Below, in pieces: positions 2,763 to 3,041 of a stretch of DNA of 28,081 nt; within the stretch, counting starts at the first letter, position 1; every line of letters begins with the position of its first letter. A program made the position numbers and the translations under genes. The notes under the pieces are model-generated. The model was not told the origin of the DNA, searched no databases, and was given only the letters and a program-made list of their open reading frames with translations. This stretch comes from a virus, in the IMG/VR virus record IMGVR_UViG_3300029953_000630; one strand, 5' to 3'.

Positions 2763-3041
2763 GGGTTAGTCCAAGGCAGAAGGACGCCACCCCATCGGGT
2801 GGAAATGCAGTGCCAACAACTGCACCCGGCTCCAAGTTTAGATGTACAAGCGTGCCCGAGGTGGAGTGCTGAGCCCTATGGTAGCCGTTCCTACGGTTGG
2901 GACAGTATGCAAGGTAAGGTCGAGCAGCCCTGTACCAACTCGTAGGTCGGGTTGGGCTGCAAGGTCACCGGAGGCCAAAGTTTAATGGGCTAGTATACTA
3001 GTTGCGGTGATTCGTGGGTTCGACTCCCACCTAGTCCACCA
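2763..3041 (+). ncRNA. Candidate structured RNA with tRNA-like, alanine-type acceptor end (tmRNA-like)
   Basis: 5' GGGTTAG pairs with 3' CTAGTCC giving G1-C72, G2-C71 and G3-U70. 3' terminus is T-arm GTGGG-TTCGACT-CCCAC + CTAGTCC-A-CCA. Interior is hairpin-rich (CCACCC-CATC-GGGTGG, 7-bp GCAGCCC/GGGCTGC). No convincing tag ORF found. Confidence 0.3.

What the first reader, a model, noticed from the sequence alone, without database searches (positions are those of the whole stretch)
2763..3041. tmRNA-like RNA: alanine-type G3-U70 acceptor end around a ~280-nt structured interior
The 3' end is a canonical T-arm plus CTAGTCC-A-CCA. The only good 5' partner far enough upstream is GGGTTAG at 2763. 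That pairing gives G1-C72, G2-C71 and G3-U70, which is the alanine identity element shared by tmRNA and tRNA-Ala. The interior has multiple stable helices. I could not find a convincing tag ORF; the candidates are ANNCTRLQV* and a 21-codon frame. It may be a divergent phage tmRNA, an intron-containing tRNA or another tRNA-like RNA.
Basis: partly seen in the sequence, partly recalled or inferred. Interest (0 to 1): 0.6.

Follow-up and report, generated by a model that had tools for sequence, protein, structure and literature searches.

The report
tRNA-derived units, not a tmRNA
The proposed 280-base tmRNA joins pieces of two separate tRNA-derived units in a phage tRNA gene array: a well-folded tRNA-shaped RNA with no anticodon loop, and a truncated tRNA that keeps only its acceptor and T arms. 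So it is mostly ordinary, with a small chance that the units are deliberate tRNA mimics.

Summary
The 3' end is real: a canonical T arm (3014-3030), CTAGTCC, A and CCA (3031-3041). The proposed 5' partner GGGTTAG (2763) is not credible. It lies inside a separate 75-nt cloverleaf (2760-2834), which folds with z = -3.9 and an acceptor-stem probability of about 0.99. That cloverleaf derives from a tRNA-Met but carries a CAUC tetraloop instead of an anticodon loop.

Better partners sit nearer: GGGCTAG (2987), which Rfam's tmRNA model picks at 30.7 bits (threshold 47), and GGGCTGC (2954). ARAGORN at default settings and Rfam at gathering scores find no tmRNA. There is no tag frame, no D-loop analogue and no P2 helix. 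The candidate tag ANNCTRLQV* lies in the T loop of the upstream cloverleaf.

The window and its relatives are phage tRNA arrays full of non-canonical and broken tRNAs. The 3' unit is most likely a truncated array tRNA that keeps an acceptor/T-arm minihelix with G3·U70, A73 and CCA.

A functional reading cannot be excluded. Mycobacteriophage DS6A has a tmRNA reduced to its tRNA-like domain, and one relative (L040) carries a similar 60-nt unit. The region is identical in every other contig that holds it, so covariation could not be tested.

The parts
2587..2754 (+). Small protein gene (55 aa) just upstream. It sets the 5' limit of the non-coding stretch.
   Evidence: Called as a gene in 10 of 10 metagenome contigs that carry it. 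An 80%-identical homologue sits in unrelated P22-like phage contigs L019 and L020.
2760..2834 (+). Unit A, a 75-nt tRNA-shaped RNA without an anticodon loop. Acceptor stem 2760-2766 with 2824-2830; U8 A9; D arm 2769-2785; 6-bp arm capped by the tetraloop CAUC (2787-2802); variable region AAAU; T arm 2807-2823 with the non-canonical loop GCCAACA; UCCA at 2831-2834.
   Evidence: The minimum-free-energy fold is exactly this cloverleaf: -35.7 kcal/mol, z = -3.87, 0 of 200 shuffles as good. Acceptor-pair probability is 0.75-1.0 in context. A covariance model of it hits tRNA-Met(CAU) in L031 and L039 at 35 bits. All 22 pairs are Watson-Crick, and 9 pairs change on both sides relative to those tRNAs. 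The Rfam tRNA model does not hit it even at E<=10.
2832..2850 (+). tRNA-junction motif CCA-AGUUUAGAUGUACAAG, made of a 3' CCA, a trailer and a leader.
   Evidence: The identical 19-mer sits between two tRNA-Asn genes in L033, L034 and L035. The trailer AGUUU and the leader AGAUGU recur next to tRNAs in the window and in relatives. UUUAGAUGU recurs at 3043-3051, directly before tRNA-Arg(ACG).
2851..2953 (+). Spacer of unknown origin that contains a stable irregular hairpin at 2890-2946.
   Evidence: The hairpin folds at -23.5 kcal/mol, z = -3.25. The wider rod 2846-2977 is not better than shuffles (z = -0.52). No Rfam hit and no similarity in relatives.
2954..3041 (+). Unit C, long reading (88 nt): a three-armed tRNA-like fold without a D arm. 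GGGCUG pairs with UAGUCC (6 bp, G3·U70, C7xC66 mismatch). Then come an AA linker, the 8-bp helix 2963-2970 with 3005-3012 capped by 34 nt, the T arm, and ACCA.
   Evidence: This is the minimum-free-energy fold in isolation, and the acceptor-pair probability averages 0.81 over seven positions, one of them the mismatch. The fold is not better than shuffles (z = -0.69). GGGCUGCAAG matches the 5' end GGACUGCAAG of the L039 tRNA-Lys(CUU), whose 3' end is GCAGUCCACCA. L040 1680-1739 has the same architecture.
2987..3041 (+). Unit C, short reading (55 nt): an acceptor/T-arm minihelix. GGGCUAG (2987-2993) pairs with CUAGUCC (3031-3037) over 7 bp with G3·U70. There is a 20-nt linker, the T arm at 3014-3030, A73 at 3038 and CCA at 3039-3041.
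   Evidence: Rfam RF00023 aligns exactly this span (30.7 bits, gathering score 47). It is preceded by the usual junction CCA-AAGUUU-AAU. The minihelix fold (-15.3 kcal/mol) loses to an alternative fold (-17.5), and the acceptor probability is 0.08. The 28-mer 3014-3041 and AUGGGCUAG are identical to the two halves of the tRNA-like domain of phage-encoded permuted tmRNAs L001-L012.
3052..3128 (+). Canonical tRNA-Arg(ACG) 10 nt downstream. It sets the 3' limit.
   Evidence: ARAGORN; Rfam tRNA at 70.5 bits.

Best explanation
Bases 2755-3051 do not encode a tmRNA. They are part of a long phage tRNA array. The array is probably transcribed as one precursor from the sigma-70-like promoter at 175-204 (inferred). 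The region holds two separate tRNA-derived units and a spacer.

Unit A (2760-2834) descends from a tRNA-Met(CAU). All four stems are perfectly paired, but the 7-nt anticodon loop has become a CAUC tetraloop and the T loop has become GCCAACA. It is tRNA-shaped but cannot decode.

Unit C ends at 3041. It is a truncated array tRNA that keeps the T arm, the acceptor 3' strand, A73 and CCA, plus a matching 5' strand. The D arm and the anticodon arm are gone.

Both units carry the leader and trailer motifs of the neighbouring tRNAs. They would therefore be cut out by RNase P and the 3'-end processing enzymes like any tRNA (inferred). Unit C would yield a 55-88-nt RNA whose G3·U70, A73 and CCA end looks like an alanine acceptor or a tmRNA tRNA-like domain. 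That resemblance is a by-product of its descent from a tRNA with U70-C71-C72-A73. In these arrays only Lys tRNAs have that end.

Shown here: the sequence anatomy, the folds, the homology of unit A to tRNA-Met, and the failure of all tmRNA tests. Inferred: co-transcription, processing, and which tRNA gave rise to unit C.
For: - Detectors. ARAGORN at default settings finds 13 tRNAs and no tmRNA. Rfam at gathering scores finds no tmRNA. The permissive Rfam hit covers only 2987-3041. Relaxed ARAGORN reports no identifiable tag.
- Unit A. The cloverleaf is the minimum-free-energy fold, z = -3.87. It is homologous to tRNA-Met of L031 and L039, with pairing kept in 98.5% of cells.
- Junction motifs delimit the units.
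- These arrays contain decayed tRNAs. Window 2411-2473 is a broken long tRNA-Arg(CCG). Window 4085-4129 is a 3' half of tRNA-Asn. L039 4664-4706 looks like an internally deleted tRNA.
- Unit C aligns along array tRNAs with two internal gaps. Over its last 40 nt, trailer included, it is 82.5% identical to tRNA-Arg(GCG) of L257. Its T arm and ACCAUUUUAG are identical to the L031 tRNA-Lys(CUU).
- Among 152 tRNAs called in 88 related loci, only Lys tRNAs end in UCC at 70-72, and they have A3-U70.
- In 185,579 genomes, CUAGUCCACCA ends occur on both tRNA-Lys and tmRNA.
- No homologue of unit C, and no tmRNA, was found in the 88 related loci.
Against: - Unit C keeps a perfect T arm, a perfect 7-bp acceptor pairing with 2987, A73, an encoded CCA, and intact leader and trailer motifs. 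That is tidier than the clearly broken copies nearby.
- Relative to the L039 tRNA-Lys, the two differences in the 3' strand (GC to CU at positions 66-67) are exactly those that complement GGGCUAG at 2987.
- All 31 nt of the minihelix are identical to the tRNA-like domain of genuine phage tmRNAs.
- L040 has a 60-nt unit with the same architecture, G3·U70 and a GNRA-capped arm, at a similar array position.
- Unit A's fully compensated stems argue that at least that unit is maintained by selection rather than being debris.
- The parent tRNA of unit C is ambiguous. Lys(CUU), Arg(GCG) and a tmRNA tRNA-like domain each match part of it.
Confidence: 0.6

Rival explanations
1. Unit C, in the 55-nt or 88-nt reading, is a functional tRNA mimic without an anticodon and with alanine identity. 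It would be comparable to the tmRNA of mycobacteriophage DS6A, which is reduced to its tRNA-like domain. It would be excised from the array precursor and might be charged by AlaRS. It could titrate SmpB, AlaRS, EF-Tu or a host factor or defence toxin that recognises tRNA acceptor ends. Unit A would be a second, unrelated mimic.
For: - The full alanine-type set G1-C72, G2-C71, G3·U70, A73, CCA is present.
- RF00023 is the best Rfam family at this site, and the DS6A element also scores below threshold (43.2 bits).
- The minihelix is identical over 31 nt to the tRNA-like domain of phage permuted tmRNAs.
- Bacterial tmRNAs start GGGCUAGUA and end CUAGUCCACCA.
- L040 1680-1739 shares the architecture while its acceptor and T-stem sequences differ yet stay paired.
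- DS6A carries a tmRNA reduced to its tRNA-like domain, and a similar molecule inhibits tmRNA (PMC4131195, citing Mao et al. 2009; PMC11915505). Another such element is in IMG/VR locus L052.
- These phages carry tRNA-repair and aaRS-like genes, so they are invested in tRNA biology.
Against: - It lacks the D-loop analogue GG(A/U)UUCGAC and the UUCGGAC/P2a context that DS6A, L052 and all bacterial examples keep.
- Only two instances were found in 88 related loci, and the L040 unit gets no tmRNA-model hit.
- Neither fold beats shuffles: z = -1.05, -0.69 and -1.11.
- The 55-nt minihelix is not the favoured fold.
- The L040 unit shares CGGGAGC with the D arm of a different Lys tRNA, which suggests an independent origin.
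Confidence: 0.25
2. One reading: one RNA of about 280 nt (2763-3041) is a divergent one-piece phage tmRNA. GGGTTAG and CTAGTCC form the acceptor stem, and the interior holds a tag frame.
For: Seven base pairs are possible, including G3·U70. ARAGORN with thresholds lowered to 80% proposes exactly 2763-3041.
Against: - That ARAGORN call has 'Tag not identified' and appears with three spurious calls.
- No tmRNA model aligns any interior position.
- The 5' strand is locked in unit A, and its pairing probability with 3031-3037 is 0.0.
- ANNCTRLQV* lies in unit A's T loop and acceptor strand.
- Two internal CCA-AGUUU tRNA junctions cut the span.
- The whole-span fold has z = -1.07.
Confidence: 0.02
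3. A single tRNA gene interrupted by an intron or large insertion, either a group I intron within 2763-3041 or an insertion in the anticodon loop of a tRNA starting at 2949/2954.
For: Another tRNA in the window (3653-3789) does carry a 61-77-nt insertion in its anticodon region. The helix 2966-2970 with 3005-3009 could be read as an anticodon stem with a 34-nt loop.
Against: - No group I intron or ribozyme hit at E<=10.
- No D arm and no 5' exon half fits.
- The 'insertion' contains a tRNA junction motif (CCA-AAGUUU-AAU).
- ARAGORN in intron mode gives only a low-quality 'tRNA-Stop' with mismatched stems.
Confidence: 0.03
4. A copy of the 3' end of a host tmRNA or tRNA gene kept as a phage attachment site (attP) or as a scar of integration.
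For: tmRNA and tRNA 3' ends are common integration sites (PMC11915505). The match covers the T arm to CCA.
Against: - No integrase was seen among the window genes examined.
- The element sits inside a co-oriented tRNA array with the array's own leader and trailer motifs.
- The exact 28-mer is absent from 185,579 representative genomes.
- A complementary 5' strand is present, which an attP core does not need.
Confidence: 0.03

Closest known systems
tmRNA reduced to its tRNA-like domain, mycobacteriophage DS6A (JN698994, 28478-28560)
   Same: Phage-encoded. Acceptor stem with G3·U70. Canonical T arm. No mRNA-like domain. Short. Below the Rfam RF00023 gathering score, with the model interior deleted (43.2 bits against 30.7 here).
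   Different: DS6A keeps the D-loop analogue (AAUGGUGGUCGAC) and a P2a helix flanked by GCAC. The window unit has neither motif. DS6A ends ACUA, the window unit ACCA. DS6A is not in a tRNA array.
Phage-encoded two-piece (permuted) tmRNAs in IMG/VR (L001-L012; tags such as ANDAFYGEERLAA)
   Same: The T arm plus acceptor 3' strand plus ACCA (28 nt) and AUGGGCUAG (9 nt) are identical to window 3014-3041 and 2985-2993.
   Different: Those genes are permuted: the acceptor 3' piece comes first and the 5' piece follows 60-100 nt later. They also have a D-loop analogue, pseudoknots and a tag frame. The window has the two strands in standard order, 20 nt apart, and nothing else. Their contigs are AT-rich and otherwise unrelated.
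tRNA pseudogenes and fragments in phage tRNA arrays
   Same: Same strand, spacing and leader/trailer motifs as the neighbouring tRNAs. Internal deletions. Clearly broken copies lie nearby at 2411-2473 and 4085-4129, and at L039 4664-4706.
   Different: Unit C keeps a perfectly paired acceptor/T-arm half. Unit A keeps all four stems with compensatory changes, which debris would not.
tRNA-Met(CAU) of related phages (L031 4444-4519, L039 5535-5611)
   Same: Unit A shares the acceptor stem, D stem, GGACGCC, the CAU triplet and the T stem (35 bits).
   Different: The anticodon loop is shrunk to a tetraloop, U33 is lost, the T loop is GCCAACA instead of UUCGAGU, and the discriminator is U. The Rfam tRNA model no longer recognises it.
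Stable non-tRNA RNAs in the phage T4 tRNA gene cluster (RNA C and RNA D, 'species 1 and 2'). This is from my own knowledge and was not checked here.
   Same: Small structured RNAs of unknown function, encoded among phage tRNA genes and processed from the same precursor.
   Different: No sequence relation was tested. A literature search returned nothing usable.
Alanine minihelix (acceptor/T-arm helix with G3·U70, charged by AlaRS). This is textbook knowledge from Schimmel and colleagues and was not checked here.
   Same: A 12-bp acceptor/T-arm stack with G3·U70, A73 and CCA.
   Different: That minihelix is a laboratory construct. Here a 20-nt linker interrupts the stack, and the fold is not the predicted optimum.

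Membership tests
tmRNA, one-piece (Rfam RF00023) | 7-bp acceptor stem with G3·U70, then A73 and CCA | tested here: met
   GGGCUAG with CUAGUCC, then ACCA, with any of three 5' partners.
tmRNA, one-piece (Rfam RF00023) | T arm with a tRNA-like T loop next to the acceptor 3' strand | tested here: met
   GUGGG-UUCGACU-CCCAC at 3014-3030.
tmRNA, one-piece (Rfam RF00023) | D-loop analogue GG(A/U)UUCGAC after the 5' strand, and a P2a helix ending in UUCGGAC before the T arm | tested here: not met
   The model aligns only 'UA' and then an unaligned 17-nt insert. The motif is present in DS6A, L052, L001-L012 and bacterial tmRNAs.
tmRNA, one-piece (Rfam RF00023) | mRNA-like domain with a resume codon and a tag frame ending in hydrophobic residues and a stop | tested here: not met
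   ARAGORN at default settings finds none. The relaxed run reports 'Tag not identified'. ANNCTRLQV* lies in unit A's T loop and acceptor strand.
tmRNA, one-piece (Rfam RF00023) | Pseudoknots PK1-PK4 around the tag frame | tested here: inconclusive
   No pseudoknot predictor was available. No tmRNA model position aligns to the interior.
tmRNA, one-piece (Rfam RF00023) | Reaches the curated score of a detector | tested here: not met
   30.7 bits against a gathering score of 47. Absent at gathering scores. Absent from ARAGORN at default settings.
tmRNA, one-piece (Rfam RF00023) | Binds SmpB, is charged with alanine, and rescues stalled ribosomes | not testable with these tools
   Needs biochemistry.
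tmRNA, two-piece (permuted; RF04321 and clade models) | An acceptor piece ending in CCA, followed downstream by a coding piece that starts with the 5' acceptor strand and a D-loop analogue | tested here: not met
   tRNA-Arg(ACG) starts 10 nt downstream. RF04321 scores only 18.8 bits and spans into that tRNA. The relaxed ARAGORN permuted call uses the tRNA-Arg as its 5' domain.
tmRNA reduced to its tRNA-like domain (DS6A type) | tRNA-like domain complete (acceptor, D-loop analogue, P2a stub, T arm) and mRNA-like domain absent | tested here: not met
   The acceptor, the T arm and the absence of an mRNA-like domain are met. The D-loop analogue and the P2a context are missing. The 88-nt reading does offer an 8-bp helix in the P2a position, but it is at chance level (z = -0.69).
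Canonical tRNA (RF00005), applied to unit C | Cloverleaf with a D arm and an anticodon arm with a 7-nt loop | tested here: not met
   Only 20 nt (short reading) or one capped helix (long reading) lie between the acceptor 5' strand and the T arm. ARAGORN does not call it.
Canonical tRNA (RF00005), applied to unit A (2760-2834) | Cloverleaf geometry 7/2/4-loop-4/1/5-7-5/variable/5-7-5/NCCA | tested here: inconclusive
   The geometry and stems are met. The anticodon loop has 4-6 nt and no U33. The T loop lacks U54 and U55. Pair 53:61 is U-A. The Rfam tRNA model gives no hit at E<=10.
tRNA with a group I intron | Group I core (P3-P9) inside the anticodon loop, with exon halves that form a complete tRNA | tested here: not met
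   No RF00028 hit or any ribozyme hit at E<=10. No exon D arm or anticodon stem.

The most novel reading that the evidence does not exclude
This group of peat-bog phages encodes deliberate tRNA mimics without anticodons inside its tRNA arrays. One is a tRNA-Met-derived cloverleaf whose anticodon loop is replaced by a tetraloop (unit A). The other is an acceptor/T-arm RNA without a D arm, carrying the complete alanine and tmRNA identity set (unit C, with an analogue in L040). The second would be a more reduced cousin of the DS6A tmRNA that keeps only its tRNA-like domain. It would be excised by RNase P and possibly alanylated. It might soak up SmpB, AlaRS, EF-Tu, or a host defence enzyme that attacks tRNA acceptor ends.
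Probability: 0.2. Interest if true: 0.6.

Novelty: new variant of a known kind. Interest (0 to 1): 0.35.

Why it matters
For annotation, an acceptor/T-arm half with G3·U70 in a phage tRNA array should not be called a tmRNA, and distant 5' partners are expected by chance in such regions.

For biology, the array shows that standard tRNA detectors miss a good share of what these phages encode: a tRNA-Met-derived cloverleaf with no anticodon loop, an acceptor/T-arm unit, a tRNA-Arg(UCU) without a D arm, and a Y-RNA-like module. If unit A or unit C is functional, it would be a decoy or mimic rather than a decoder. That would bear on how large phages that carry tRNAs, truncated aaRS-like genes and RNA-repair genes deal with host defences aimed at translation. 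If the units are debris, they record rapid gain, deletion and recombination of tRNA genes in phage arrays.

Tried and rejected
- Covariation test of the region: impossible. Bases 2755-3051 are 100% identical across their full length in 11 other metagenome contigs, and a 12th covers only the first 126 nt. No relative has a neighbouring ArgRS-like protein between 76% and 100% identity.
- Homologue search in relatives. I fetched 13 loci through proteins and 79 through a metagenome scan. Permissive blastn found only T-arm matches and one 19-mer junction.
- Covariance models of unit A and unit C. They found tRNA-Met and 3' halves of tRNA-Lys, but no true homologues.
- A joint model of the window and L040 units. 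MAFFT would not align the helices, so I dropped it and used a descriptor scan instead. That scan was noisy and found only those two units.
- Exact and degenerate DNA scans. The 32-mer across unit C has no hit in IMG/VR. The hits for the 19-mer junction in IMG/VR were chance matches in coding sequence. The degenerate pattern for the T arm and acceptor gave tmRNAs and tRNAs but no short unit like unit C. L073, from the same sample, is unrelated.
- Cultured phages: only tRNA matches.
- ORF reading of 2842-2985 (47 aa): no gene caller calls it in any contig, so I rejected it.
- The 12-bp palindrome CTAGTATACTAG as a binding site: about 7 such palindromes are expected in a window of this size, so I did not pursue it.
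- Literature search for the T4 cluster RNAs: nothing usable.
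Full report
**Context.** The window is a phage-like segment. All 13 tRNA genes that ARAGORN calls lie on the + strand between 544 and 9997, and Rfam agrees. Nearby genes encode a truncated ArgRS-like protein (4380-5453), an HNH endonuclease, two R2K ATP-grasp proteins, Ku and a major-vault-protein-like protein. Sigma-70-like promoters sit at 175-204 and 6152-6181, and no terminator-like site lies on the + strand in the tRNA-dense stretch that includes the finding. The array is therefore probably one precursor; this is an inference. 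The finding lies between a 55-aa gene (2587-2754) and tRNA-Arg(ACG) (3052-3128). The small gene is called in every contig that carries it and has an 80%-identical homologue in P22-like phage contigs.

**The observation.** The T arm GTGGG-TTCGACT-CCCAC (3014-3030), CTAGTCC (3031-3037), A (3038) and CCA (3039-3041) are there, and so is GGGTTAG at 2763-2769. The 3' half is not a chance match: Rfam's tmRNA model aligns 2987-3041 at 30.7 bits, E 2.8e-10 for that search. That alignment pairs CUAGUCC with GGGCUAG at 2987-2993, not with 2763. It deletes 328 of 374 model positions and stays below the gathering score of 47.

Other heptamers can pair with CUAGUCC: 2949 (GGGTTGG) and, at 6 of 7, 2954 (GGGCTGC). 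In the tRNA-rich stretch 1900-3400 such heptamers occur about once per 190 nt. A partner 250 nt upstream therefore carries no weight. The whole 2763-3045 span folds no better than shuffled sequence (z = -1.07).

**What the 5' end really is.** Bases 2760-2834 fold into a complete cloverleaf, and this is the minimum-free-energy and centroid structure. It has:
- a 7-bp acceptor stem (GCCGGGU with ACCCGGC), then U8 A9;
- a 4-bp D stem with a 9-nt loop;
- a 6-bp arm capped by CAUC;
- a 4-nt variable region;
- a 5-bp T stem with the loop GCCAACA;
- UCCA at the 3' end.

The fold scores -35.7 kcal/mol, z = -3.87, with 0 of 200 shuffles as good. A covariance model of this unit finds tRNA-Met(CAU) of two related phages as its best matches (35.1 and 34.5 bits). 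On that three-sequence alignment 98.5% of cells pair and nine pairs change on both sides. The caveats are that there are only three sequences and that the alignment was fitted to the model.

Unit A is thus a tRNA-Met derivative. It has kept every stem, but it has lost U33 and the 7-nt anticodon loop, and its T loop has been replaced. Rfam's tRNA model no longer detects it.

**Unit boundaries.** The 19-mer CCAAGTTTAGATGTACAAG (2832-2850) is identical to the spacer between two tRNA-Asn genes in related phages. The trailer CCA-AGTTT and the leader AGATGT flank many tRNAs in the window and in relatives. The same motif, CCA-AAGTTT-AAT, immediately precedes GGGCTAG at 2987, and TTTTAGATGT follows the CCA at 3041. 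These junctions cut the proposed 280-nt RNA into at least three pieces.

**Tests for a tmRNA.** All of these failed:
- ARAGORN at default settings finds none.
- At 80% thresholds it proposes 2763-3041 with 'Tag not identified', together with three candidates built on neighbouring tRNAs.
- No tmRNA, permuted-tmRNA, group I intron or ribozyme model touches 2750-2990 at E<=10.
- The D-loop analogue GG(A/U)UUCGAC and the UUCGGAC/P2a context are absent. Both are present in every genuine example I retrieved.

**What unit C is.** Two readings are possible.
- Short reading, 2987-3041 (55 nt): a 7-bp acceptor stem plus T arm with a 20-nt linker. It has the expected leader, but it is not the favoured fold (-15.3 against -17.5 kcal/mol; acceptor probability 0.08).
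- Long reading, 2954-3041 (88 nt): a three-armed RNA without a D arm. It has a 6-bp acceptor stem with G3·U70, a C7xC66 mismatch, an 8-bp helix (2963-2970 with 3005-3012) and the T arm. This is the minimum-free-energy fold in isolation, but it is not better than shuffles (z = -0.69).

**Comparative evidence points to an origin from an array tRNA.**
- GGGCUGCAAG matches the 5' end of the L039 tRNA-Lys(CUU), which ends GCAGUCCACCA.
- AAUGGGCUAGUAUACU resembles the D loop of the L031 tRNA-Lys(CUU). That tRNA's T arm and ACCAUUUUAG are identical to the window.
- The last 40 nt, including the trailer, are 82.5% identical to tRNA-Arg(GCG) of L257. That tRNA occupies the equivalent position, just before the trailer shared with the window.
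- Among 152 tRNAs called in 88 related loci, only Lys tRNAs have U70-C71-C72, and they pair it with A3. A single A3-to-G change therefore gives G3·U70.

**The arrays contain clear wrecks.** Window 2411-2473 is a broken long tRNA-Arg(CCG). Window 4085-4129 is a 3' half of tRNA-Asn. L039 4664-4706 is an acceptor 5' strand, 9 nt and a T arm.

**Evidence that keeps a functional reading alive.**
- All 28 nt from the T arm to CCA, and AUGGGCUAG, are identical to the two halves of the tRNA-like domain of phage-encoded permuted tmRNAs in IMG/VR (tags such as ANDAFYGEERLAA).
- Some bacterial tmRNAs start GGGCUAGUA and end CUAGUCCACCA. So do some tRNA-Lys 3' ends.
- A tmRNA reduced to its tRNA-like domain is known in mycobacteriophage DS6A, and a similar molecule inhibits tmRNA (PMC4131195; PMC11915505). 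I located the DS6A element at JN698994 28478-28560. It also scores below threshold (43.2 bits) but keeps the D-loop analogue and P2a.
- Relative L040 carries a 60-nt unit (1680-1739) right after tRNA-Arg(CCG). It has G1-C72, G2-C71, G3·U70, a 7:66 mismatch, a GNRA-capped 8-bp arm, the same T loop, and ACCA.
- However, L040 is the only other instance in 88 loci. It gets no tmRNA-model hit, and it shares a D-arm heptamer with a different Lys tRNA.

**Limits.** The region is identical in all other contigs that contain it, and there are no intermediate relatives. Selection on unit C therefore cannot be measured. I could not test pseudoknots, expression or processing.

**Verdict.** The ~280-nt tmRNA is not real. 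The region holds a tRNA-Met-derived cloverleaf without an anticodon loop, which is probably maintained by selection. It also holds a spacer with a stable hairpin, and a truncated tRNA whose surviving acceptor/T-arm half mimics an alanine or tmRNA acceptor end. Debris is the more likely reading of that last unit (about 0.6), and a deliberate mimic is possible (about 0.25).

Noticed in passing
window 2011-2091 (+); L040 11852-11932: An 81-nt tRNA-Arg(UCU)-like gene without a D arm, missed by ARAGORN and by Rfam at gathering scores. It has acceptor GGGCGUG with CACGCCU, anticodon arm CCCGC-CUUCUAA-GCGGG, then 22 nt containing UAAUUGGA, then the T arm and ACCA. L040 has a gap-free homologue with covarying stems.
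   Followed up: partly
window 2411-2473 (+): A broken copy of the long-variable-arm tRNA-Arg(CCG) seen intact at L039 3156-3244. The D arm is partly deleted, the T arm is destroyed, and there is no acceptor 3' strand. It abuts tRNA-Arg(UCG) at 2479.
   Followed up: partly
window 4085-4129 (+): A 3' half of a tRNA-Asn(GUU): anticodon loop CUGUUAA, T arm, CUGAGGA-G-CCA. No 5' half is present. It is the third Asn-type unit in a row after 3890-3964 and 3981-4073. A 5' fragment of the long tRNA-Lys also recurs at 4254-4271.
   Followed up: partly
window 3653-3789 (+); L031 ~6800-6873: A tRNA (Rfam 51 bits) with 61-77 nt inserted in the anticodon region and GCA instead of CCA after the discriminator. 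Its 3' end and trailer are conserved in L031. The nature of the insertion is unknown, and no ribozyme or intron model hits it.
   Followed up: partly
window ~3801-3882 (+); L031 ~3220-3335: A module that looks like a circularly permuted tRNA: a T arm, then an acceptor-like stem-loop, then a D arm. It gives a weak hit to the Y-RNA-like family YrlA (RF02553, 21 bits, E 0.15). It is conserved in L031, with about 50 nt inserted in the stem-loop.
   Followed up: partly
window 544-639, 3890-4073, 1178-1253 and 5497-5585; L031, L033, L039, L040: These phages carry pairs of tRNAs with the same anticodon, one of normal length (~75 nt) and one of 86-96 nt with a long, class-II-like variable arm. The amino acids are Trp, His, Arg, Asn, Lys and Gln, none of which normally has such an arm.
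   Followed up: no
window 86-157 and 6617-6703 (+); promoters 175-204 and 6152-6181: Four copies of a ~40-nt repeat (CCCCGGAAAGTCTCGGGGTTCGATTGAAAC) in two tandem pairs, 6.5 kb apart. The first pair lies just before one near-consensus sigma-70-like promoter at the start of the tRNA array, and the second pair lies about 440 nt after the other.
   Followed up: no
window 4380-5453, 22504-24963, 19611-20597, 8279-9124, 20938-21846: A truncated ArgRS-like protein (357 aa) with over 190 homologues in metagenomes. Relatives also encode HisRS-like (~165 aa) and TrpRS-like (~185 aa) fragments, Tpt1/KptA and RlaP. The window also has a major-vault-protein-like protein (819 aa), Ku, and two R2K ATP-grasp proteins.
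   Followed up: partly
window 3129-3652 (+): A 524-nt non-coding stretch after tRNA-Arg(ACG). It has an orphan T arm (3520-3536) with no CCA, followed by a hairpin with the loop CCGCGUGUGUAAGU. Hairpins with similar loops (…GUGAGUAAGU…) recur in spacers of L031 and L033.
   Followed up: no
L052 ~3031-3110 (IMGVR_UViG_3300031993_002509): An ~80-nt tmRNA-like element reduced to the tRNA-like domain: GGGGAUG, GAAUGGUUUCGAC, a short P2a stub, UUUCGGAC, the T arm, CAUCUCC-ACCA. A tRNA follows it directly. It is a second natural example of the DS6A type.
   Followed up: no
L255 6337-6426 (Parcubacteria MAG JBEEJS010000071.1): A tRNA-like gene that ARAGORN does not call. It starts GGGCUAGUAUCC and ends CUAGUCCACCA (G3·U70), with a 3-bp D stem and what looks like a long variable arm.
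   Followed up: no
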